64,000 nt of DNA from positions 2,336-66,335 of IMG/VR virus record IMGVR_UViG_3300031251_000017, one strand, 5' to 3'. The translations under genes were made by a program, and so were the position numbers. Below are positions 4,038 through 43,620 of the stretch, one piece after another; the stretch's first letter is position 1; the number at the start of each line of letters is the position of its first letter. The stretch is from a virus. The notes under the pieces were generated by a model. That model searched no databases. It had not been told where the DNA came from and saw nothing but the letters and a program-made list of their open reading frames with translations.

Positions 4038-5276
4038 ATGGCCGACGAAATTGACAACCCCGTCAAAGGGGTGATGGTCGCCTTCGAGGAATTCAAGGCG
4101 GCGAACGACGAGAACCTTCGCAAGCGCGATGTCGTCATCGAGGAAAAGGTCGCTCGGATTAACAACACCCTCGACCGCTTCGAGGATATGAACAAGAAGC
4201 TCGTCGACTCCGAGAATGCCACGAAGGCGCTTCAGGAGAATTTTGATCGCCTTGAGACGGTGCTGAACCGTAAGGCGTTCAATAAGGGTGGCGATCTCCC
4301 CGAGGCGACGAAGGATGAAGCGGAATATCGCGACGCCTTCCGCCGCGCGATCCGCAAGCCCGAAGGCGAGCGCCGTCCCGAGGACTCCGCGCTTCTTCAC
4401 AAGCGCAAGGCCGCGCTCATCAAGGGCGACGACACCGCTGCGGGCTATCTGCTGGCCCCGGCCGAGATGGAAGCCGCGATCATCAAGGATGTGGTCGAGA
4501 TTTCCCCGATCCGTGGTCTCGCGTCGGTTCGCGCGATCGGTTCGGCGACCCTCAAGATGCCGAAGCGCACCGGCACGGCCGGCGCTGCGACGCGCGTCGG
4601 CGAACAGACGACTCGCGCAAACACGGGCGATCCGGCTTATGGCATGATCGAGATTCCGGCGCCGGAAATGTTCGCTCGCGCGGAGATTTCGGCCCAGATG
4701 ATCGAGGACTCGGCCTATGACCTCGAAAAGGAGCTTCGCGGCGAATTCGCCGAGCAGTTCGCCCTCAAGGAAGGCATCGAGTTCGTTTCCGGCACCGGCG
4801 TAAACAATCAGGCCGAGGGTCTTCTGACGAACTCGGGCGTCGGTTCGGTTGCGGCCGGCTCGACCACGAACATCACGGCCGATGGTCTGATCGCGCTCTA
4901 CTATGCGCCGAAGACCGTCTATCTCGCGGGTTCGTCCTTCATCCTCAATCGCGCTTCGATCCGCGAGGTTCGTAAGCTCAAGGATGGTGAGGGTGGCTAC
5001 CTGTGGACGCCGGGAATTCCGGGCGCTGTTCCGAATACGATCCTCGGCGCGGGTTACACCGAAGTCCCGGCGATGCCGGACATCGCTTCGGGCGCTTTCC
5101 CGGTCATGTTCGGCAACTATGCGCGCGGCTATGTGATCGTCGATCGCGTCGCCATTCAGGTGCAGGTCGACTACATCACCGGCGCCGACTCCGGCATCGT
5201 CGTGTTCCGCGCTCGCAAGCGCGTCGGCGGCGGCGTTCGTCAGGCGGATTGCCTCAAGAAGCTGGTCATCTCGTAA
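4038..5276 (+). CDS. HK97-fold major capsid protein
   Basis: SD AAGGAG. N-terminal coiled-coil delta domain, GYLLAP, LKDGEGGYLW, ILG and FRARKRVGGGV motifs. Confidence 0.95.
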   Translation: MADEIDNPVKGVMVAFEEFKAANDENLRKRDVVIEEKVARINNTLDRFEDMNKKLVDSENATKALQENFDRLETVLNRKAFNKGGDLPEATKDEAEYRDAFRRAIRKPEGERRPEDSALLHKRKAALIKGDDTAAGYLLAPAEMEAAIIKDVVEISPIRGLASVRAIGSATLKMPKRTGTAGAATRVGEQTTRANTGDPAYGMIEIPAPEMFARAEISAQMIEDSAYDLEKELRGEFAEQFALKEGIEFVSGTGVNNQAEGLLTNSGVGSVAAGSTTNITADGLIALYYAPKTVYLAGSSFILNRASIREVRKLKDGEGGYLWTPGIPGAVPNTILGAGYTEVPAMPDIASGAFPVMFGNYARGYVIVDRVAIQVQVDYITGADSGIVVFRARKRVGGGVRQADCLKKLVIS

Positions 5277-35662: not shown

Positions 35663-36569
35663 TGTCGACTCCCTTGAGCGCGGCGAGTTCGCGCTCTGCC
35701 TTCCTCGCCCTTTCCAGATAGCGATTATTCGCTTCGAGCAATTCGTTCACGCGGCGCTCTTGATGATCGACAAGCATCGCGACCCCTCCCCCGGCGCGCG
35801 CCATATCCTTCTTGAGCGCGGCGAGTTCCTTCTTTGCTTCGTCGCGCTCATGCTCGGCGCGATAGGCGCGCGCCATAAAATCAGCGGACCCCTCGGTCCA
35901 TAGCGCGAGTCGCTTCTCGGCTTCCTCGGCCCGGCGAAGATGCCGCGAAGCTGCTTCGTTCATCAGCTTCGCGTTATCGACAGCCGCGTCGCGCTCGGCC
36001 TTTATGGTCTCGACGACCACTTCGACCATCTCGATCTTCTTCCCGGCTTCATCGTCGATGCGACGCCATTCCTCGACTTCGGCGCGGAGGGTGTCGCGCT
36101 CGGCTTCGGCCTTCTGGCGCGCTATGCCTAAATTCCTAATGTCGCGTATGTCAGCCTCACGCGCCTCGAATTGTATTCTGGCTTCTTCCCTCTCGGCGGC
36201 GAGTTCGGCGCAGGCTTTGTCTGCGCGTTCTTTCTCTATTTGCCAGTGGCATTGAAACTCGGCGTGCTGGCTGCGTTCATAATCCGCGTCGCTCTTGGCG
36301 GCGGCGAGTTCGGCGCGGGCCTCATGAAGGATTGCTTCAATAGACGCAAAGTCACCCTGCGCCTTGGCGAGTTCGGCGCTGGCCTTGATCGCCTCGTCTT
36401 TCATCGCCTCGTATTGCGACTGCCAGTTTTTATTGCCGATCCGAAGGGCGCCGATTTCACTCGCCGCCTTCCGAAGCAACCACCCGAGAGTAACGCGCGC
36501 TTCGTGAACGCGCTGGTGTTCCGCGCCGCTCTCGGTCACGAGTTCAAGAAGGACATCGACCTCAGGCAT
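35655..36569 (-). CDS. Coiled-coil protein
   Basis: AELAA repeats; coupled to its neighbours. Confidence 0.7.
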   Translation of the reverse strand: MPEVDVLLELVTESGAEHQRVHEARVTLGWLLRKAASEIGALRIGNKNWQSQYEAMKDEAIKASAELAKAQGDFASIEAILHEARAELAAAKSDADYERSQHAEFQCHWQIEKERADKACAELAAEREEARIQFEAREADIRDIRNLGIARQKAEAERDTLRAEVEEWRRIDDEAGKKIEMVEVVVETIKAERDAAVDNAKLMNEAASRHLRRAEEAEKRLALWTEGSADFMARAYRAEHERDEAKKELAALKKDMARAGGGVAMLVDHQERRVNELLEANNRYLERARKAERELAALKGVDNE

Positions 36570-38340
36570 CGTAAGTCTCCTTATAAGACGCGATGACGAT
36601 CTTCTCGCCGCGAAGCTGCGGGGGAAGCCAGCCGTGAACGGCGGCGGCGGTAGCAGAGAACAGGGCGAGGTCGCCCTTCTTCGAGGGCCGGGGCTTCTTG
36701 TCGACCCCCATCTCGTCGAGCGCCGCGTGGCAGAGATCGGCCTTCACCGCCTTGAAGTAATGCGTGGCGTCGAAGACCTCGCGGGAAGCTCTTTCGAGTT
36801 CGGCGGGATCGAGCGCGCGCAGGAGCGCGGCTCGCACGTCCTTCGTGCAGAACCCGGTCCGAAGGTCGAGGCTCTGAGCGATCAATTCCGCAAGCCGCTC
36901 GCCGGCCTCGACCGGACCCTCGGGGGATTGAGCGAGGATCGTCTCGAAGCGATCGGTCGGCCCCTCGCCGAGTCCCGGCGCTCCGTTCGATCTGATCTTC
37001 GCCGGGGTGTCGCCGTAGGACTCAAGGGTGGCGATCAAGACGCTGACGGCGAGAGCCGGGTCTTTCCGCAGGGTGAGATACGCCGCCTTCGTCAACTGCT
37101 CGGACAGGGCAAGCTCAAGAGCCGCGCTGATCTTCTCGGAAGGCGCTGCGCTACTATCCTCCATCCCTTCTTCTTCCGGCTCTCCAGCGGCCGGTTTGCC
37201 GGCCGTGGCGGAGGCTTTCGCGGTCTTCGGGTCGAGGACGCCGCGCTCGATGACGATCTTCCCATCCCAGTCAACCGAGACGAAGCACCCCGACTTCGCC
37301 CTCTCGGCCGGCTTCCAGCGCCGGGCGTCGATCGCAGCCTCGATTTCCTGCTTCCTCTCGACGAGCGCCTCGATCTCGGCATCGTCCTCGGCGCCGAACG
37401 GGTCTTCGCTGTCCTCCGGGGAGAGGACGGCGATCCGTTCCTCGATCTTCTTGTGTTCCGCTCGCTCGGACGGCGACGGGTTCCGCTTCCCGGTCTGAGG
37501 AAGCCGAGGCCAGTTCCACGGGGATTGCACCGAGTCCTTCGTAACAGCGAATGACCAGCCGTCCGCGATCAGGTCGGCGCAAGTCTTTTCGAGCTTCTCG
37601 GCGAGAAGACGCTTCGCGAGATCGGGATCAGAGAGAACATTCTCGTCTCCGAATAGGTCTTCGATGATCGACCCGCCGGCCGCGAGATAGGCTTCGAGGC
37701 CGATCGCCTCGAAAGCCCGGTTCGCGTCGTGATCGAAGCCGAGCGCCGCCTTTACATCGTGAGGATAGACGCCGCCCTTCTTGGCGAGCTTGTCGAAGAC
37801 TTCTTTCTGAACTTCTTGGTTCGGGGCGATCGTAAAGGCTTTCGCCGTCTCGTCGCTGATCTGTAGGTTCCGCCACGCCTCGCGAATATCCGGGTGGAGC
37901 TTTCCGAGGGCGAGTGCCGCCTTCACCTCTTTCTCGGTCTTGCCGAACCTTTCCGCTATGTCCCTCGGCGCGAGGCTTGATGTCAAAGCCGCATAAGCCT
38001 CGAATTCGTCGATCGGGTGAAGGCCCTCGCGCTGAACGTTGGCGACGAGCGAAAGCTCGCGGGCTTCGTCGTCTGTAGCGTCCGCGTAGACGATCGCCTT
38101 TGTAACGTCGATGGGGAGTTCTACTCCCTCTTTCTCATGGAGGAAGCGGATCGCGGCGAGGCGTCGATTGCCGTCGATCACTTCTGCTTTCCCGTCTTCC
38201 CGGAGCCGAACAATGATCGGCTGCAAGAGGCCGTGCGCTTTGATCGAAGCCGCGAGCGACTCGATCCCGATGTCGCGATCGGTCTTGCGGCAGTTGATGT
38301 CCTCCCGCGTCAAGAGGTCTGTTAGATTAAGCGTCGTCAT
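36562..38340 (-). CDS. parB: ParB/RepB/Spo0J-domain protein with long C-terminal extension
   Basis: IESLAASIKAHGLLQPIIV, IDGNRRLAA, ANVQREGLHPIDE and HTH DIAERFG. Confidence 0.9.
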   Translation of the reverse strand: MTTLNLTDLLTREDINCRKTDRDIGIESLAASIKAHGLLQPIIVRLREDGKAEVIDGNRRLAAIRFLHEKEGVELPIDVTKAIVYADATDDEARELSLVANVQREGLHPIDEFEAYAALTSSLAPRDIAERFGKTEKEVKAALALGKLHPDIREAWRNLQISDETAKAFTIAPNQEVQKEVFDKLAKKGGVYPHDVKAALGFDHDANRAFEAIGLEAYLAAGGSIIEDLFGDENVLSDPDLAKRLLAEKLEKTCADLIADGWSFAVTKDSVQSPWNWPRLPQTGKRNPSPSERAEHKKIEERIAVLSPEDSEDPFGAEDDAEIEALVERKQEIEAAIDARRWKPAERAKSGCFVSVDWDGKIVIERGVLDPKTAKASATAGKPAAGEPEEEGMEDSSAAPSEKISAALELALSEQLTKAAYLTLRKDPALAVSVLIATLESYGDTPAKIRSNGAPGLGEGPTDRFETILAQSPEGPVEAGERLAELIAQSLDLRTGFCTKDVRAALLRALDPAELERASREVFDATHYFKAVKADLCHAALDEMGVDKKPRPSKKGDLALFSATAAAVHGWLPPQLRGEKIVIASYKETYDA

Positions 38341-38659: not shown

Positions 38660-39121
38660 TTAAGTCTCGAAGCGCGCTTCTTGCGGGCCTCGCTCTTGGT
38701 CTTGATATTTCCCGGTGTAGGGTTGATCGGTCGGCTCATAGAGCAAATGGAAAACGATCTGCGCGATCGGCGAGCCGTCCGCGATCGTCAACGTCTCGGG
38801 GCCGTGGTTCGTCAATTCGAGGGTGAGGAATCCCTTCCATCCCGGCTCGATGATCGTGTTCTGAACCGCGAGACCTTGGCGCGCCCATGAACTCTTGTCG
38901 GCGACTTGGGCGAGCAAGAAGTCGGGCATCTTGAATTCCTCTAGCGTCGAGGCGAGCCGGAACTCGCCGCTGCGCAAGACGCGACCCTTGTCGATCCTCA
39001 CATCGTAACCTGCCGAGGAAAGCCCGAACGACATGCCGAAGGCTTTCCCACGCTCGACGAACGGCTTGATGAGGCGGTGGTTGATACAATGATCGCGGAT
39101 ATGTTGAGCCGGCAGGATCAT
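38660..39121 (-). CDS. dcd: dCTP deaminase / trimeric dUTPase family
   Basis: SFGLSSAGYDVR, KSSWARQG, IEPGWKGFLTLE, IAQIVF and YTGKYQDQ. Confidence 0.9.
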   Translation of the reverse strand: MILPAQHIRDHCINHRLIKPFVERGKAFGMSFGLSSAGYDVRIDKGRVLRSGEFRLASTLEEFKMPDFLLAQVADKSSWARQGLAVQNTIIEPGWKGFLTLELTNHGPETLTIADGSPIAQIVFHLLYEPTDQPYTGKYQDQERGPQEARFET

Positions 39122-39125
39122 CTGC

Positions 39126-39347
39126 TTATTCCTCCATGACCGTGGGAACGTCGCGCCATTCGAAGGTGTTCGAAACCAAGCAGCCGTGCTTGTAAATCTT
39201 GACATTGAAGCGGTGCTGCAGCCGCTTATCGATACGAACGTCGAATGGGTTCGGTCCGAAGACGCGAGAGGCAAGCCATCGGATTTCGTCGACTTCCTTC
39301 TCGACTCGCATGGTGCTCGTAGCGGGATCGAAATCTGTTGTCTTCAT
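39126..39347 (-). CDS. Hypothetical protein
   Basis: SD GAGG; ATGA overlap; RLQHRF...EWRDVPTV. Confidence 0.55.
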   Translation of the reverse strand: MKTTDFDPATSTMRVEKEVDEIRWLASRVFGPNPFDVRIDKRLQHRFNVKIYKHGCLVSNTFEWRDVPTVMEE

Positions 39348-39775
39348 TTGATGTCCTCGAAGATTGGACGGGGCGGGAGGGACTGCTTCTGAATCCGCGT
39401 CGGCTTCGCGCTCGTCTCGAAGCCGCGCGACTGTATCTTCGTCTTCGACTCGACGAGGCCGTGCGCCTTCTTCGCCATGCGATCGGCCTTCGCTTGCCGC
39501 TTGCGTTCGGCGGCGGTCTTTAGTTCGTGGGGGAGCCTCAAGACGGTGGCGAGGTTCGACTCTCGGTTCTCGCCCCCTTCTTCGAGCGGCTTGATGTGCT
39601 CCAAGTCGAAGGTCTGCCCGTCCGCGATCAAGATGCCGGTCAGGTAGCACTTCGACCCACCGCGTCGCAGGATGCGAAGGCGAACGGTCGGCGGCGGCTT
39701 TGAGTCGGGGTTCTTCCCGATCCATTCCTTGACGGCGCGCCCATGCGCTTTCTCGATCTTTGGTGCCTTCGTCAT
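39344..39775 (-). CDS. HNH endonuclease-like protein
   Basis: EWIGKNPD, KCYLTG, EHIKPLEEGGENRESNL and HELKT. Confidence 0.8.
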   Translation of the reverse strand: MTKAPKIEKAHGRAVKEWIGKNPDSKPPPTVRLRILRRGGSKCYLTGILIADGQTFDLEHIKPLEEGGENRESNLATVLRLPHELKTAAERKRQAKADRMAKKAHGLVESKTKIQSRGFETSAKPTRIQKQSLPPRPIFEDIK

Positions 39776-39803
39776 TCTCTGTTCGCGTCTATGGGTTGTC
39801 GGG

Positions 39804-39866
39804 TCGTTGCGTTGCGATGCGGCGCGGCGCGGTGCGCAGCGGAGCGCGGGGTTGCGCGGCGGTGGA
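39804..39866 (-). ncRNA. Pentamer-periodic array A (CGC+NN), putative guide RNA
   Basis: Sense (-): TCC ac CGC cg CGC aa CCC cg CGC tc CGC tg CGC ac CGC gc CGC gc CGC at CGC aa CGC aa CGA; intergenic. Confidence 0.7.
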
Positions 39867-39868
39867 AC

Positions 39869-40351
39869 CTATTTCCCAATCCTGCGGAAATCCTCGCGCG
39901 GATCGGGGTTGACCGTCTCGACATTCGCCACCAGACCCTTGTTGCTCTTGGGGCGAGGGTGGGAGGTCGATTCAAGAAGGCGGTAACGGGAAAGCTGCTC
40001 GGTGGCGGCGATCATGTCGTCGCGCGTCAGGTTTTGCGAAATGGCGATCTCTTGGACGCGCGCCTCGCGCCGGCTGATCCGACGAATTTTCTTGAACCCC
40101 TTCGGGGCGCGCTCAACCATGCTCCTGCCGTCGAGTCGCATGAAGCCGAAGCCGCGAACCCCGTCGATCACAACTCCGAAATCGCGCTCGGCGGCTTTCT
40201 TCGCGGATTGATAAGCAGGAAGATTGCTCGTCACTTTGAAGCCGACCGTATCGGAAGCGGCCTCGAAGCTCATGTTCGACATGACCGGCATCTGCCGGAA
40301 CAAGTTCACAAGGGCCTCGGTTTCCTTGCTCTGATTGAAAATCGGTTTCAT
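39869..40351 (-). CDS. Accessory protein between arrays (putative winged-helix)
   Basis: SD GGAG; helix-rich start then VIDGVRGFGFMRL wing-like hairpin; basic. Confidence 0.7.
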   Translation of the reverse strand: MKPIFNQSKETEALVNLFRQMPVMSNMSFEAASDTVGFKVTSNLPAYQSAKKAAERDFGVVIDGVRGFGFMRLDGRSMVERAPKGFKKIRRISRREARVQEIAISQNLTRDDMIAATEQLSRYRLLESTSHPRPKSNKGLVANVETVNPDPREDFRRIGK

Positions 40352-40371
40352 TGCTTTCTCCGTTGTCAGGT

Positions 40372-40441
40372 TCGTTGCGTTGCGTTGCGGTTCAGATCAC
40401 GGCGCTGCGAAGCGTTGCGTGGCGGAGCGGGGCGCGGCGTT
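40372..40441 (-). ncRNA. Pentamer-periodic array B (CGC+NN), putative guide RNA
   Basis: Sense (-): aa CGC cg CGC cc CGC tc CGC ca CGC aa CGC tt CGC ag CGC cg TGA tc TGA ac CGC aa CGC aa CGC aa CGA. Confidence 0.7.
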
Positions 40442-40515
40442 GATTTGGTGGTTCCCCACCGGGAAGCCGACCGTGATCGGCTCTCCGTTGGGGTGGGGAA
40501 GCCCGAAGGCTCCCC

Positions 40516-40580
40516 CCGTTGCGTTGCGTTGCGGTGCGAAGCGCCGCATAGCGCAGCGTCGCGGAGCGGTGCCGCGCGTC
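40516..40580 (-). ncRNA. Pentamer-periodic array C (CGC+NN), putative guide RNA
   Basis: Sense (-): ga CGC gc GGC ac CGC tc CGC ga CGC tg CGC ta TGC gg CGC tt CGC ac CGC aa CGC aa CGC aa CGG; begins right after the RAMP-like stop codon. Confidence 0.7.
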
Positions 40581-40581
40581 G

Positions 40582-41151
40582 TCATCCGTTCCCCCAAGTG
40601 AACTTGGTGGGGCGGAATCTCCCATTTCCGGCCGGGCTTTTCGTGATCGGGCGACCGCGCCCGACCCCGGCCAGCAGACCGGCTTGCTCGAAGAACCTCT
40701 CGAAGATTTCCTCGGGCAGCGTGTCGTTAAAAATCCGCATTTCGAGTTCGCCGCGCCAAGTCGGAACAATCGGGAAGAACCGAGTGACGCGGGAACCCGG
40801 CCCGCGCTTTCCGTTCGCGTGGGCGTAAATCTCGATAGCCTTCACCTCGTTGATATGGACGCCGAGGCTAACGTCGCTCATGGCGACGACGCCCGTCGCA
40901 AATTGGCCGGCCCAAGTCTGATTTCCCTTGCCCTTAATCTTCTCGTTCAAGAGAGATGCAGTTTCATCAAGCGCACATTTGAAGGCAACGCCGGGAATGA
41001 AGACGATTCCATTATCGTCAACGTGCGCCTTCTCTCTCCATCGGCGCTTCTCGTGGGCGTCTTCGTCCTCACCCTTTTGAAGCGCCTTAACGAAGTGCTT
41101 TGATGCGGAATAGGGGGTCATTCCTTCGATCTGGATGGTCACGGTTCTCAT
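40582..41151 (-). CDS. Stand-alone Cas7/RAMP-like RNA-binding protein
   Basis: RAMP-type pattern: N-terminal strand VTIQIEGMTPY, IPGVAFKCAL, W.GELEM strand and C-terminal Gly-rich loop AGLLAGVGRGRP...GNGRF. Confidence 0.75.
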   Translation of the reverse strand: MRTVTIQIEGMTPYSASKHFVKALQKGEDEDAHEKRRWREKAHVDDNGIVFIPGVAFKCALDETASLLNEKIKGKGNQTWAGQFATGVVAMSDVSLGVHINEVKAIEIYAHANGKRGPGSRVTRFFPIVPTWRGELEMRIFNDTLPEEIFERFFEQAGLLAGVGRGRPITKSPAGNGRFRPTKFTWGNG

Positions 41152-41176
41152 TTTCGTTTCCTTCTTGCGTTGAGGT

Positions 41177-41231
41177 TCGTTGCGTTGTGCGGCGAAGCGC
41201 GGCGTAGCGGGGTGTCGCGTGGCGAGGGGTT
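41177..41231 (-). ncRNA. Pentamer-periodic array D (CGC+NN), putative guide RNA
   Basis: Sense (-): aa CCC ct CGC ca CGC ga CAC cc CGC ta CGC cg CGC tt CGC cg CAC aa CGC aa CGA. Confidence 0.7.
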
Positions 41232-41232
41232 C

Positions 41233-41610
41233 TTATTCGACTTGCGCCGAAACCTTGGGGTGCTGCGACAGGAATCTCTCAAGGCGACCCCGCATATGGG
41301 CGGCTTCGTTGTGGGTGATCTTCCCGTCTTCCTTCCCTTCGAGATTAAACCGTGGCGCGCCCTCGATCGACGCCGGCTCGCAGTAGCGCGCGCCGTGCGT
41401 ATAATCGAGAAGCGCGACTCCGATCTCATAGGAACCGAGTTCCGGGATCGCGTGGGCGATGTCCTGCCCGATCCCGATCTTGAGCGGCTTCTTCATCTCC
41501 CCGGAGGGAACGAAGCAAGCCGGGAAGCGATCGACGAGGATCGCGCGAACGCGCGCGACCATCGCCTTGTTCGTCTTCGTCTTGAAGCTGTTGTGGGCTT
41601 GCTGCATCAC
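41233..41610 (-). CDS. proQ: ProQ/FinO-domain RNA chaperone
   Basis: RFPACF...KPLKIGIGQDI, ALLDYT...Y and GAPRFNLEG..G.IT..EA.H match the FinO/ProQ consensus. Confidence 0.85.
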   Translation of the reverse strand: MMQQAHNSFKTKTNKAMVARVRAILVDRFPACFVPSGEMKKPLKIGIGQDIAHAIPELGSYEIGVALLDYTHGARYCEPASIEGAPRFNLEGKEDGKITHNEAAHMRGRLERFLSQHPKVSAQVE

Positions 41611-42641
41611 TTCCCCCCGTTTACGGAGTCATAGCCGGAGAGCCAGCGGGCGGTTTGGTCTTCGTGCTTGCGGACTGGCAGCGGCACGTTCTTCCTCGAA
41701 GAACCTTGTCGCGCGGCCGTCGCGCCGTCCTCGAAGATAGGATCGGCCCCCGCCGGGTCCGCTACGCCCTTTGAGGCGTCGGCGGGGGCCTCGGACTGCG
41801 ACGACCCGCCAGCCGCGTCCTTCTCTTGCGCCGGCTCGTCGGCCAGCGCGTTCTTAACGACCGTGTGAGCCGCACCACTCGTCGGCTTGCCCGAGAAGAT
41901 TTCCTCGACGGTCGCCTCGCCATTCTTGATAGCCGAGAACATGCCGCGCAGGATCGGGATGTGGTCGAGGTTTATGTCGTCGTTACCGGCGACGCCGAGC
42001 GCGGCGAAGACTTGCTCGGGCTTAATGCCGAAGGCGGCAAACGCCGTGACCGCCTTCTCCCGGCGAACCGTGAGCGTCTGAACGTCTCCCGCGACGACCT
42101 TCCGCGCGGCTTCGTATGCTTGACGCCATACCGGCTTCGGGACACAGCCGAGGATCACGTTGCGCTTTGCGATAGCCATCGCAGCGTTGCCCGTCACGAT
42201 CCTCATGTCTTCGTTATAGAGCTTCCCATATTTGTCCGAGATACGGCGTGAGACTTGAACCGTCTGGCCGGAACCCGTTTCGAGATCGAGGAAGGAAGCC
42301 TCGGCGACGATCATCTTGTCCTCGATCCTCGTCTCGACGATCCGGGTCGACACGCGGCAATTCCCCCAACATTGGTGGATGATCTCGGCGAGCCGGATCG
42401 AGGGGCCGAGGATCGGCTTCCCGCCGCGCGGAAGCGCGAAGGAACACTCGGCGGCGGTTTCTTCGTCCATCGTCGCGAGGGTCAGGATCGCTCCGGTCGC
42501 GCGCTGTATCGAACGCGGATAACGCCGGGCGGTCTCGACTTGAATGTCGATCTCGGCTCGCGCGAGTCCGATCGCGAGCGGGAGAGAGTTCGGCGCGATC
42601 TGCTCGATCACCTCGCCGTCGTGCGTTACGATCTCATTCAT
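41607..42641 (-). CDS. Putative single-strand annealing/recombination protein
   Basis: AEIDIQVETARRYPRS and GPSIRLAE..CWGN; paired with the upstream exonuclease; acidic disordered tail. Confidence 0.6.
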   Translation of the reverse strand: MNEIVTHDGEVIEQIAPNSLPLAIGLARAEIDIQVETARRYPRSIQRATGAILTLATMDEETAAECSFALPRGGKPILGPSIRLAEIIHQCWGNCRVSTRIVETRIEDKMIVAEASFLDLETGSGQTVQVSRRISDKYGKLYNEDMRIVTGNAAMAIAKRNVILGCVPKPVWRQAYEAARKVVAGDVQTLTVRREKAVTAFAAFGIKPEQVFAALGVAGNDDINLDHIPILRGMFSAIKNGEATVEEIFSGKPTSGAAHTVVKNALADEPAQEKDAAGGSSQSEAPADASKGVADPAGADPIFEDGATAARQGSSRKNVPLPVRKHEDQTARWLSGYDSVNGGK

Positions 42642-42654
42642 TCGTTCGGTTCCT

Positions 42655-43620
42655 TTACTTGCGGAAAGCCCACGCGGGGATGTCGTTAATATCGAGTTCT
42701 TCGAGCGGGAGCGCCTCAACCCACGGCGTGTCGAGGCCGAACTTCTCGGAGAAGGCGAGCCAGTTCGCTTCGCCTTGTTCGATCACGGCGCGGCCGTGGT
42801 CGAAGATGCCGTTCTCGGGCGAGATTTGCGTCGCCCATGACAGGGGCGCGCTCTGTTTCTGAACGAAGACGAAGACGAAGGCGGCGGCGTCCTTTGCGGC
42901 AGCAGCGCGCAAGCGATCGACGGTCGTCGTGTCGCCATCTGGAAGACCGAAGACTTTCCCGGCTTCGACAAGCGCCGCCATCTGCCTCCAGCCGTCCATG
43001 TAATAGGCGGCTTGCACGAAATACTTGTAAGTGCCGATATGACGCCGGCAGAGTTCTACGAAGTCGATCCCGTCGCGGTTCGTTATCGACTTGAGATCGA
43101 CGCCAGCGATCGGCTTCAAGGCGTCAAAGCGGACCTTCTTCCGAATTCCGTTTTTCGGGTCGATCCAAAAGATCGAGACCTCTGTCCCGATAGTATTGTG
43201 GAAGGCGTCGCCATGTTCGGGATTCGATCGAACAAGCGAGCCGGCCTTCATGATTCGTTTATAGAACCGCCAGCGGATCGGAGTCTTTCCGGCTTCCTCG
43301 ATCGCCTTCCGCTCGGCCTTCCCTTCCTTGATATTTCCGGGGAGCATTGCGGGCGCATATAGCTTCTCGAAAAGTTCGCGCCCTTCGAGGATATTCTTGT
43401 GCATCGCCGTCCCGACGATCTTCGCTTCTTCCTTCTCACCTTCCTCGTCGTCGGGATCAGGGTTGAAGCGCGACTCCCACCACCAGTTCGGAGGGCAGAC
43501 GGCGAGCTTACGAATATCACTCGACCCGAGCGCCGGGTCGATGTGATAGCGATCTTCGGGCAGTCCGAAGTAAATTCCCGGCGCGAGCGGATTGGGCAGC
43601 TTTCTTTCTTCCTCGCTCAA
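42655..43620 (-). CDS. RecE/Exo VIII-like PD-(D/E)XK exonuclease (DUF3799-like)
   Basis: YH.DPALGSS, GTAMH, EVSIFW, KVRFD..VDLKS and Y.VQAAYY. Confidence 0.85.
   Translation of the reverse strand: MSEEERKLPNPLAPGIYFGLPEDRYHIDPALGSSDIRKLAVCPPNWWWESRFNPDPDDEEGEKEEAKIVGTAMHKNILEGRELFEKLYAPAMLPGNIKEGKAERKAIEEAGKTPIRWRFYKRIMKAGSLVRSNPEHGDAFHNTIGTEVSIFWIDPKNGIRKKVRFDALKPIAGVDLKSITNRDGIDFVELCRRHIGTYKYFVQAAYYMDGWRQMAALVEAGKVFGLPDGDTTTVDRLRAAAAKDAAAFVFVFVQKQSAPLSWATQISPENGIFDHGRAVIEQGEANWLAFSEKFGLDTPWVEALPLEELDINDIPAWAFRK

What the first reader, a model, noticed from the sequence alone, without database searches (positions are those of the whole stretch)
39344..41610. Candidate non-CRISPR RNA-guided system: lone Cas7/RAMP-like gene embedded among four pentamer-coded RNA arrays
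Seen: on the - strand the order is proQ-like, array D, a 189-aa gene (40582-41151), array C, a hairpin linker, array B, a 160-aa gene, array A, then HNH. Each array fills an intergenic gap and has 11-14 units of constant CGC plus a variable dinucleotide. I saw this repeat nowhere else in the window. The 189-aa protein has the RAMP/Cas7 pattern (VTIQIEGMTP, IPGVAFKCAL, C-terminal Gly loop AGLLAGVGRGRP..GNGRF), yet there is no cas1/2/3/5/6/8/10 and no repeat-spacer CRISPR. Established: Cas7/Csm3-type RAMPs polymerise along guide RNA with a fixed nucleotide period. Inference: each subunit binds one 5-nt unit via CGC and presents NN for pairing, giving a programmable non-contiguous guide against competing phages, MGEs or host genes. 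From memory, and unverified here, a recently reported phage class called VIPR pairs such a protein with GGY/NN RNAs. This locus uses CGC/NN on the sense strand, so it may be a distinct subtype.
Basis: partly seen in the sequence, partly recalled or inferred. Interest (0 to 1): 0.96.

Follow-up and report, generated by a model that had tools for sequence, protein, structure and literature searches.

The report
Phage VIPR system with CGC-NN guides
This temperate phage carries a copy of the VIPR RNA-guided DNA-silencing system first published in 2026, written with C-G-C instead of G-G-Y scaffold letters, and one guide spells a conserved capsid-gene motif of small rival elements.

Summary
Four 11-14-unit arrays of NN+CGC pentamers fill the gaps around a 189-aa gene, all on the - strand. 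They occur nowhere else in the 66-kb phage contig.

The 189-aa protein is a Vipr homolog:
- A 31-sequence profile hits PDB 36pp 'SUSP1 Vipr protein' at E 2e-7.

All 25 related loci have period-5 arrays on the gene's strand. The constant triplet changes with the protein clade: CGC, CAC, RAT.

The 160-aa gene is the conserved accessory partner, next to vipr in 15 of 25 loci. ProQ (0 of 25) and HNH (3 of 25) are only neighbours.

So this is a member of the VIPR class (bioRxiv 10.64898/2026.04.26.720920). Non-canonical triplets are already in print. 'CGC' is not named in the main text of the four papers I searched, and supplements were closed.

New lead: read with one skipped base, guide C exactly spells V-N-P-Y-H-S-D-V-A-S in the capsid gene of a tail-less, integrase-bearing 9-13-kb element family. 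This is suggestive, not proven.

RNA expression could not be tested.

This scan has noted VIPR loci before on other DNA, including a CGC-NN one.

The parts
40582..41151 (-). vipr: 189-aa stand-alone RAMP (Cas7-like) protein with G-loop GVGRGRP...GNGRF
41167..41229 (-). array D (putative vrRNA): 12 NN+CGC-type units between the ProQ gene and vipr, ending in the vipr ribosome-binding site
40516..40580 (-). array C (putative vrRNA): 12 units plus AACGG, starting right after the vipr stop codon. Its variable units are GA GC AC TC GA TG TA GG TT AC.
   Evidence: The 1-nt-skip pattern has an exact codon-phased match in a capsid gene.
40454..40516 (-). two GC-rich hairpins between arrays C and B; possibly a structured 3' tail or end of vrRNA C
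   Evidence: The RNA fold of 40352-40581(-) has MFE -96.5 kcal/mol against a shuffle mean of -85.8, z -2.35. No Rfam family matched at E<=1. No T-tract terminator was found.
40372..40441 (-). array B (putative vrRNA): 13 units plus AACGA, upstream of the 160-aa gene
39869..40351 (-). vap-like accessory gene (160 aa): predicted winged-helix-like domain (residues 9-72) plus two long helices (75-128)
   Evidence: It sits next to vipr in 15 of 25 related loci. The AF2 model has pLDDT 83.1. Foldseek gave no hit at E<=1e-3; the weak hits are nearly all winged-helix regulators. No Pfam or PHROG family. No sequence similarity to SUSP1 vap1. Its atlas cluster is viral and unnamed.
39799..39863 (-). array A (putative vrRNA): 11 units plus AACGA CCCGA, between the vap-like gene and the HNH gene

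Best explanation
The locus is a VIPR (Viral Interference Programmable Repeat) system of a temperate tailed phage. It consists of vipr (189 aa), a vap-like accessory gene (160 aa) and four guide-RNA genes (vrRNAs A-D).

SHOWN HERE:
- the protein's homology and fold;
- the arrays' statistics;
- their conserved association with the protein on its strand;
- hypervariable NN next to a fixed triplet.

INFERRED from the SUSP1 and P. fulva work:
- The arrays are transcribed with the operon on the - strand.
- One Vipr protomer binds each 5-nt unit. Neighbouring protomers clamp C-G-C (in place of G-G-Y) and expose the two variable bases.
- The filament pairs those bases with double-stranded DNA that reads NN-x-NN-x (one base skipped), and it blocks transcription of the target.

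The CGC scaffold goes with a changed pocket. The SUSP1 residues that read G1 and G2 (H17, R138, D177, W178) are S17, F126, R165 and G166 here, while R179 (the pyrimidine pocket) is kept as R167.

The most likely use is conflict with rival mobile elements. Guide C spells the conserved capsid motif V-N-P-Y-H-S-D-V-A-S of a family of tail-less, integrase-bearing 9-13-kb elements (satellite-like) of Alphaproteobacteria.
For: 1. Homology to a solved Vipr.
- The only PDB sequence hit of the single protein is 36pp 'SUSP1 Vipr protein' (E 1.1).
- With a 31-sequence profile it reaches E 2.1e-7 over residues 101-171.
- hhalign gives prob 93.9.

2. Fold.
- AF2 pLDDT is 94.4.
- 153 Foldseek matches at E<=1e-3, led by Csm3/Cas7.

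3. Arrays.
- They are far beyond chance and unique in the contig.
- They have 11-14 units, within the published 9-16.

4. Co-occurrence with the protein.
- A strict detector finds same-strand period-5 arrays in 19 of 25 related loci.
- The other 6 have degenerate or RAT/xxT arrays.
- Several of these loci are near-duplicates.

5. Fixed triplet, variable NN. In 36 non-redundant CGC-clade arrays (426 units) the triplet is C 96%, G 97%, C 96% (1.7-1.8 bits). The NN positions carry 0.05-0.07 bits.

6. Positive control. In phiSUSP1 my detector finds GGY/NN arrays only on the vipr strand, flanking vipr-vap1.

7. Strand grammar. On the sense strand every clade reads x-purine-pyrimidine + NN (GGY, RAT, CAC, CGC). 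This fits the pyrimidine-only pocket for base 3. The invariant part lies 3' of the variable part, as published.

8. The vap-like partner is conserved in 15 of 25 loci.

9. Phage context. The tool calls the contig a virus record. It encodes TerL, portal, protease, capsid, tape measure and integrase.

10. No self-targets beyond shuffled guides, as in the paper.

11. Guide C.
- It has an exact match in L029 at 4519-4547. NN falls on codon positions 1-2 and the skipped base on the wobble position, at the most conserved motif of the capsid gene.
- The same site is the best hit in 75 of 81 family members at >=15/20, and 50 of 81 reach >=17/20. 100 shuffled guides reached at most 17.
Against: - No RNA data. 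No listed run holding this DNA is RNA, so transcription, strand, ends and processing are unshown.
- Sequence similarity to SUSP1 Vipr is significant only over the C-terminal 60-71 residues. The H17-to-S17 mapping rests on a MAFFT alignment at 18% identity.
- The canonical GGY scaffold is absent.
- There is no long conserved pseudoknot tail, only AACGCAACG(A/T). Only array C is followed by hairpins.
- Promoter and terminator scans gave nothing above shuffles.
- Guides A, B and D have no convincing target.
- The guide C lead is post hoc. With 20 fixed bases, I estimate roughly 1-2 exact chance hits in a collection of the order of 1e12 bases (size assumed). Two were found, and one (L028) is non-coding and looks like chance. 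The near-matches in homologs follow from protein conservation and are not independent evidence.
- The target family was not found in the one MAG (G001) that carries a related vipr.
- The skip rule itself is untested for this clade.
Confidence: 0.86

Rival explanations
1. Same system, but the guide RNAs are made from the opposite (+) strand. They would read GCG+NN with a 5' handle CGTTGCGTT, from promoters of their own.
For: No expression data decide the strand. GCG/GTG read as G-Y-G keeps two guanines, like GGY. A gapped NN-x target pattern is the same for either strand, so the capsid match does not discriminate.
Against: - In the experimentally mapped SUSP1 locus the arrays lie on the vipr strand.
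- On the + strand the third scaffold base would be a purine, against the purine-excluding pocket.
- The invariant part would lie 5' rather than 3' of the variable part.
- The gaps are only 81-230 nt and end in ribosome-binding sites. No + strand promoter-like site lies in them.
- The arrays sit on the gene's strand in every related locus.
Confidence: 0.07
2. The Vipr-vrRNA filament acts mainly on RNA (mRNA of rivals) rather than on double-stranded DNA. As written on the - strand, guide C is complementary to the capsid mRNA.
For: Guide C equals the antisense strand of the capsid gene in all 75 family members with a site. SUSP1 Vipr can pair its guide with ssRNA in vitro.
Against: In SUSP1, RNA targets give mostly incomplete filaments, and silencing works on either DNA strand. 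One guide with one orientation is no statistic. The basic residues that clamp the non-target DNA strand were not mapped here.
Confidence: 0.1
3. The arrays are DNA-level or translational features (iterons, protein-binding sites, leader or attenuator sequences of the operon) and not guide RNAs. The RAMP-like protein has another ligand.
For: The arrays lie in 5' untranslated gaps directly before ribosome-binding sites. Gene callers sometimes translate through them, as in the N-terminal extension of P0081.
Against: - Iterons would keep their sequence. Here two of five positions are at 0.05-0.07 bits while three are near-invariant.
- The triplet co-varies with the protein clade.
- The protein is homologous to one solved on exactly such RNA.
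Confidence: 0.03

Closest known systems
Type II VIPR of Escherichia phage SUSP1 (and the Pseudomonas fulva prophage): Vipr + vap1 + four GGY/NN vrRNAs; bioRxiv 10.64898/2026.04.26.720920, .720927 and 10.64898/2026.10.15.759431; PDB 36pp
   Same: - A small stand-alone RAMP of about 190 aa with the G-loop GVGxxRP. R179 corresponds to R167 here.
- A two-gene core with a small accessory protein.
- Several 11-14-unit arrays of 3 fixed + 2 variable bases on the gene's strand, one upstream and the rest downstream.
- Phage-borne, with no self-targets.
- A guide in codon phase on a conserved gene of a small integrative element that lacks tail genes. This parallels SUSP1's satellite targeting.
   Different: - The scaffold is C-G-C, not G-G-Y.
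- The residues reading G1 and G2 are all replaced: H17 to S, R138 to F, D177 to R, W178 to G.
- The G-loop is about 6 residues longer than SUSP1's, and 2 longer than in the CAC clade.
- The 3' end is a short AACGCAACG(A/T) handle instead of a ~40-60-nt pseudoknot tail.
- Arrays are interleaved with the genes.
- The accessory protein has no detectable sequence similarity to vap1.
- Overall identity to SUSP1 Vipr is 18%.
- Nothing here is shown experimentally.
Non-canonical VIPR arrays: 'YNNNG, NNNGG, NNNNG' units (10.64898/2026.04.26.720920, methods) and 21 clusters with GAC/NN, CAC/NN, WGT/NN, TGH/NN (10.64898/2026.10.21.760802)
   Same: Period 5, an alternative fixed trinucleotide and a Vipr-like fold next door. 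Written as CNNCG, the unit here fits 'YNNNG'. The CAC/NN type is what I find in the 36-41%-identical relatives L014-L023.
   Different: 'CGC' occurs 0 times in the main text of all four papers. The figures and tables that list the motifs (fig. S17, data S4, Fig. S10A) were not visible to me, so CGC may or may not be listed there.
CRISPR type III / type VII Cas7 backbone subunits (Csm3, Cmr4, Cas7 of type VII)
   Different: There is no repeat-spacer array in the window, and no Cas family among the 18 ORFs scanned. The period is 5 with 2 paired bases, rather than 6 with 5 paired. Identity is 10-14%.

Membership tests
VIPR system | Vipr protein: small single-RRM RAMP with thumb and glycine-rich loop | tested here: met
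VIPR system | Sequence homology to an experimentally characterised Vipr | tested here: met
   Profile against PDB 36pp_D 'SUSP1 Vipr protein': E 2.1e-7. hhalign: prob 93.9, E 1.6e-7. Only the C-terminal 60-71 residues align significantly.
VIPR system | Tandem 5-nt units (3 conserved + 2 hypervariable), 9-16 per RNA, in intergenic regions flanking vipr on its strand | tested here: met
   Four arrays of 11-14 units. The triplet carries 1.7-1.8 bits and NN 0.05-0.07 bits over 426 units. They sit on the same strand, as in the SUSP1 control.
VIPR system | Canonical GGY scaffold | tested here: not met
   The scaffold is CGC. The papers admit related consensus units (YNNNG and others; GAC/NN, CAC/NN), so this does not exclude membership.
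VIPR system | Invariable structured 3' tail after the repeat tract | tested here: inconclusive
   There is a conserved short 3' end, AACGCAACG(A/T). Only array C is followed by hairpins. No Rfam match.
VIPR system | No CRISPR array at the locus | tested here: met
   No 23-mer occurs 3 or more times in the 64-kb window.
VIPR system | No other cas genes; minimal vipr + vap locus | tested here: inconclusive
   The core of vipr plus the 160-aa partner is conserved in 15 of 25 loci. Only 18 window ORFs were scanned against Pfam/PHROGs, with no Cas family among them. No systematic cas search was done.
VIPR system | vrRNAs are expressed and co-purify with Vipr | not testable with these tools
   This needs small-RNA sequencing and a pull-down of the tagged protein, which these tools cannot supply.
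VIPR system | Targets follow the 1-nt skip rule on DNA, often in codon phase | tested here: inconclusive
   One exact codon-phased match of guide C lies in a capsid gene. The count of exact hits equals my rough chance estimate. Guides A, B and D have no hit.
VIPR system | Carried by a virus or provirus (most, not all, VIPRs) | tested here: met
   The tool calls the contig a virus record. It encodes TerL, portal, protease, capsid, tape measure and integrase. 24 homolog loci come from viral contigs.
VIPR system | Assignment to one of the seven published types | not testable with these tools
   Types are defined in fig. 5A, fig. S16-S17 and data S4, which are not held as text. Supplements are closed.
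CRISPR-Cas class 1 effector | Repeat-spacer array and partner Cas subunits | tested here: not met
   No repeat array. The neighbours are ProQ, a winged-helix-like protein, HNH and recombination genes.
   ProQ is next to vipr in 0 of 25 loci and HNH in 3 of 25 (L003, L004, L014), by BLASTP at 1e-4.

The most novel reading that the evidence does not exclude
The CGC clade may be a naturally orthogonal VIPR. All four residues that read G1 and G2 in SUSP1 Vipr are replaced, in step with the scaffold change G-G-Y to C-G-C. The related CAC clade keeps an aromatic residue at the W178 position. If this holds, the scaffold code is itself evolvable and clade-private, which would stop rivals' solo guides from hijacking the protein. 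In addition, guide C would be a real weapon against the invariant NPY..VAS capsid motif of a widespread family of tail-less, capsid-forming satellite-like elements of Alphaproteobacteria. That would extend phage-versus-satellite VIPR warfare beyond E. coli.
Probability: 0.4. Interest if true: 0.55.

Novelty: new member of a known kind. Interest (0 to 1): 0.36.

Why it matters
The class is published, so this locus does not open a new field. It is still useful in three ways.

1. It is a clean, compact example of a VIPR whose scaffold triplet differs at the first base, and whose protein has changed at exactly the positions that contact that part of the RNA in the solved structure. This is a natural experiment on how Vipr reads its scaffold. 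It is also a candidate for an orthogonal tool that would not cross-react with GGY guides.

2. Across one protein family the triplet shifts with the clade (CGC, CAC, RAT/xxT). That gives material for a scaffold-specificity code.

3. If the capsid-motif target is real, VIPR-mediated conflict between phages and capsid-forming satellites also occurs in soil Alphaproteobacteria.

Tried and rejected
EXPRESSION. No RNA holder is listed for 39300-41700; only 2 DNA runs hold it. Laying those two runs on the L029 capsid gene gave only 35-40-nt fragments under 90% alike. Nothing can be said about whether the target element is in the same samples.

RFAM. 0 matches at E<=1 on 39000-42000, so no hammerhead or other known RNA.

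PROMOTERS AND TERMINATORS. Counts in the window, L008 and L003 were at or below the shuffle means, and no site lay in the array gaps.

CULTURED PHAGES. tblastn of the 189-aa protein found no match at E<=0.01 in 50,697 phage records.

TARGETS.
- Within the phage's own contig and 25 related loci, skip 0, 1 or 2 gave nothing above shuffled guides. The skip-3 hits are the arrays themselves.
- Exact NN-x patterns of guides B, A and C: 0 hits in viral contigs.
- Guide B: 0 hits in metagenome contigs, and 0 of 401 genomes of the order of G001 at up to 2 mismatches; the control was also 0.
- Guide D (16 variable bases) was not searched, because it is too short to be specific.
- 36 distinct guides of the CGC clade (the 4 of this window and 32 of related loci) were tested against L029-L031 and then against 81 capsid-family elements.
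  - Only guide C stands out.
  - L003:3926-3970 scores 15/16, codon-phased, in an HTH-like ORF of L029. 2 of 5000 shuffles reach this on L029 alone and 3 of 100 on the 81-element set. I treat this as weak.
- The L028 exact match of guide C is non-coding and I treat it as chance.
- G001, the MAG with a related vipr, has no match to the capsid family.

ACCESSORY PROTEIN.
- No Pfam or PHROG family.
- No significant similarity to SUSP1 vap1: BLASTP E 0.43, hhalign prob 0.7.
- Foldseek best E 0.09.
- The atlas gives only unnamed viral clusters.

REJECTED IDEAS.
- ProQ or HNH as system components: rejected.
- The capsid family as a classical gene transfer agent cluster: considered from recall, because of its spread in Rhodobacterales. 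Not supported, because L029 and L052 carry an integrase and no tail genes.

NOT RUN. Complex prediction was not run: I make no binding claim between vipr and vap.

Full report
WHAT IS THERE.

Read on the - strand, window 39344-41610 holds the following, in order:
- a ProQ/FinO-domain gene (41233-41610; PF04352, E 4.6e-18);
- an 81-nt gap;
- a 189-aa ORF (40582-41151);
- a 230-nt gap;
- a 160-aa ORF (39869-40351);
- a 93-nt gap;
- an HNH gene (39344-39775).

Each gap is filled by runs of five-base units made of two variable bases plus CGC:
- D has 12 units.
- C has 12 units plus a partial one.
- B has 13 units plus a partial one.
- A has 11 units plus two degenerate ones.

C and B share one gap and are separated by two GC-rich hairpins.

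The arrays are not chance:
- 24 eight-unit windows with at least six CGC in phase lie on the - strand and none on the + strand. In 100 Markov simulations the mean was 0.01.
- A detector that accepts any triplet finds only these four arrays in the whole 66,335-base contig.
- The shared 3' end AACGCAACG occurs exactly four times, once at each array end.

THE PROTEIN.

The 189-aa protein has no Pfam family and only an unnamed PHROG.

By sequence:
- Against all PDB sequences its single weak hit is 36pp, 'SUSP1 Vipr protein' (E 1.1).
- A profile of 31 homologs (from 106 found) raises this to E 2.1e-7 over residues 101-171. This stretch includes the glycine-rich loop.
- hhalign against the phiSUSP1 translation gives probability 93.9.

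By fold:
- The AlphaFold model is confident: pLDDT 94.4, pTM 0.89.
- Its best structural matches are Cas7-type backbone subunits: Csm3, type VII Cas7 and Cmr4. Foldseek gives E 1.6e-7, with 153 matches at E<=1e-3.

An exhaustive profile search finds 2,549 cluster representatives at E<=1e-3 and 517 at E<=1e-30. It is a large family.

WHAT IS KNOWN.

VIPR is in print.
- Of 10.64898/2026.04.26.720920 I read the Results, two methods sections and passages.
- Of 10.64898/2026.04.26.720927 I read the first part of the Results.
- Of 10.64898/2026.10.15.759431 I read the abstract, one methods section and passages.
- Of 10.64898/2026.10.21.760802 I read passages only.

According to these papers:
- Vipr is a ~20-kDa stand-alone RAMP of phages.
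- vrRNAs carry 9-16 GGY/NN units followed by an invariant 3' tail.
- One protomer binds one unit. Two neighbours clamp GGY and expose NN.
- The filament recognises double-stranded DNA that reads NN-x (one skipped base) and silences transcription.
- Natural targets are rival phages and satellites, often in codon phase.
- Alternative units (NNNGG, YNNNG, NNNNG) and alternative triplets (GAC/NN, CAC/NN, WGT/NN, TGH/NN) are reported.
- 'CGC' occurs in none of the four main texts. Supplements were closed, so I cannot say whether this clade is already typed.

DO HOMOLOGS KEEP ARRAYS?

I fetched 25 related loci: 1 from a bacterial MAG and 24 from viral contigs. Several are near-duplicates.
- A strict detector finds period-5 arrays beside the gene, on the gene's strand, in 19 of 25 (the output was partly cut).
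- The remaining six have degenerate arrays that end in the same CAACGCAACG (L008-L010, L013), or arrays with RAT or xxT triplets (L024, L025).

The triplet follows the protein clade:
- CGC at 50% identity or more (L001-L013);
- CAC at 36-41% identity (L014-L023);
- RAT or xxT at 29-33% identity.

In 36 non-redundant CGC arrays (426 units) the triplet is 96-97% conserved (1.7-1.8 bits). The two variable positions carry 0.05-0.07 bits, and all 16 dinucleotides occur.

As a positive control I fetched phiSUSP1. My detector finds its GGY/NN arrays only on the vipr strand: one upstream of vipr and the others after vap1.

WHICH STRAND?

There is no expression evidence. The sense strand is favoured for these reasons:
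- The mapped SUSP1 vrRNAs lie on the vipr strand.
- Read on that strand, every clade has the grammar x-purine-pyrimidine + NN. This matches the purine-excluding pocket for the third scaffold base.
- The invariant part then lies 3' of the variable part, as published.
- The short gaps offer no opposite-strand promoter-like site.

I put the opposite-strand reading at about 7%.

THE SCAFFOLD POCKET.

The alignment with SUSP1 Vipr (the C-terminal part is confirmed) places the residues as follows:

| SUSP1 residue | Role in SUSP1 | Residue here |
|---|---|---|
| H17 | hydrogen-bonds G1 | S17 |
| D177 | hydrogen-bonds G1 | R165 |
| R138 | holds G2 | F126 |
| W178 | holds G2 | G166 |
| R179 | pyrimidine pocket | R167 (invariant) |

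- At the positions of D177 and W178, the CAC clade has Q/R/A followed by Y/F, and L024 has R-W.
- The change of scaffold base 1 from G to C therefore goes with replacement of both residues that contact it.
- This is correlation across a few clades. The N-terminal mapping rests on an alignment at 18% identity.

THE PARTNERS.

- The 160-aa protein is next to vipr in 15 of 25 loci. ProQ is there in 0 and HNH in 3.
- Its model (pLDDT 83) shows a helix-strand-helix-helix-strand-strand unit like a winged helix, followed by two long helices.
- Foldseek gives no significant hit. The weak ones are almost all winged-helix regulators.
- It has no sequence similarity to SUSP1 vap1.
- It fits the paper's description of vap genes as predicted DNA binders, but I cannot name the type.

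CONTEXT.

The contig is a temperate tailed phage. It encodes terminase, portal, protease, HK97-type capsid, tape measure and integrase, and the tool calls it a virus record. VIPR sits in the early region, beside RecE-like and phrog_3657 genes and a dCTP deaminase.

TARGETS.

- No guide matches the phage's own contig or the related loci above shuffled guides.
- Exact NN-x patterns of guides B, A and C have no hit in the viral collection.
- Guide B has none in the metagenome collection, nor in 401 genomes of the order of G001 at up to two mismatches.
- Guide C has two exact hits in the metagenome collection.

By my rough estimate this count is what chance would give for 20 fixed bases in about 1e12 bases. 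The count alone therefore says nothing. One hit (L028) is non-coding.

The other hit (L029 4519-4547) lies in an HK97-type capsid gene.
- The paired bases fall on codon positions 1-2 and the skipped base on the wobble position.
- Together they spell V-N-P-Y-H-S-D-V-A-S. This is the most conserved stretch of the protein: N, P, Y, V, A and S are invariant in 25 homologs.

L029, and a complete 10.4-kb relative L052, encode terminase, capsid, portal, integrase and adaptor or protease, but no tail genes.
- Contigs of this family cluster at 9-13 kb.
- Source names place it in Rhodobacterales and Rhizobiales.
- This gene content resembles capsid-forming phage satellites (cf-PICIs). I know that class from recall and from a search listing only.

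Across 81 elements, the best guide C site is this same motif on the same strand:

| Score (of 20) | Elements (of 81) |
|---|---|
| >=15 | 75 |
| >=17 | 50 |
| >=18 | 35 |
| >=19 | 8 |
| 20 | 1 |

Shuffled guides reach at most 17. This breadth follows from protein conservation and is not independent evidence.

- The phage's own capsid protein is only 27% identical over 160 residues and has no such site.
- A guide of the related locus L003 hits another ORF of L029 at 15/16 in codon phase. This is weak after multiple testing.

I rate the capsid target as likely real, perhaps 60%. The reasons are that a chance hit would rarely be codon-phased on the invariant motif of a mobile-element structural gene, and that this is the published habit of VIPR guides.

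VERDICT.

This is a genuine, tidy VIPR system with a C-G-C scaffold. It is a new member of a kind published in 2026, not a new kind.

This scan has noted many VIPR-like loci on other DNA (512 notes hold the search words). One is described as CGC-NN with a capsid-aimed guide. Those are unchecked AI notes and I did not test them.

Now the value lies in the scaffold-pocket covariation and the satellite-capsid lead.

Noticed in passing
window 41233-41610 (-): A phage-encoded ProQ/FinO-domain RNA chaperone gene lies directly upstream of array D (PF04352, E 4.6e-18). It is not found next to vipr in any of 25 related loci, so any link to vrRNA handling is specific to this phage or coincidental.
   Followed up: partly
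L029 1-8789; L052 1-10413; L032-L111: A large family of 9-13-kb integrase-bearing elements of Alphaproteobacteria encodes terminase, portal, protease or adaptor and an HK97 capsid, but no tail genes. They look like capsid-forming satellites. 686 capsid homologs were found at E<=1e-20.
   Followed up: partly
L016-L023, e.g. L020 3897-4496: Relatives with CAC/NN units carry long multi-guide arrays, up to about 600 nt. Guides of about 8-10 units are separated by a fixed GACCCGACACGACAACC-GCTTTTCCG junction. This array architecture differs from the one in the window.
   Followed up: no
L015 3663-3864: Hybrid arrays: variable CAC/NN units run into a tail of up to seven AACGC repeats. This is the same handle that ends the CGC arrays, which hints that the AACGC handle is older than the split between the CGC and CAC scaffolds.
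   Followed up: no
P0081 (278 aa), and ORF calls in L005, L012, L014 (alignments A1, A2): Gene callers and ORF finders read through the arrays and give vipr or vap false N-terminal extensions rich in R, A, S, T and Q. In the window, the 361-aa + strand ORF 39743-40828 across the arrays is likewise spurious.
   Followed up: partly
window 41607-43620 (-): A recombination module sits just upstream of the VIPR locus: a RecE-like PDDEXK exonuclease (phrog_412, 5e-45) and a phrog_3657 protein.
   Followed up: no
window 36562-38340 (-): A 592-aa ORF whose N-terminus looks ParB-like by eye. It was not scanned against any library.
   Followed up: no
L028 404-432: A second exact match of the guide C pattern lies in a non-coding stretch downstream of an ORF that looks like a YkoF/MTH1187-type protein by eye. 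It is probably a chance match.
   Followed up: partly
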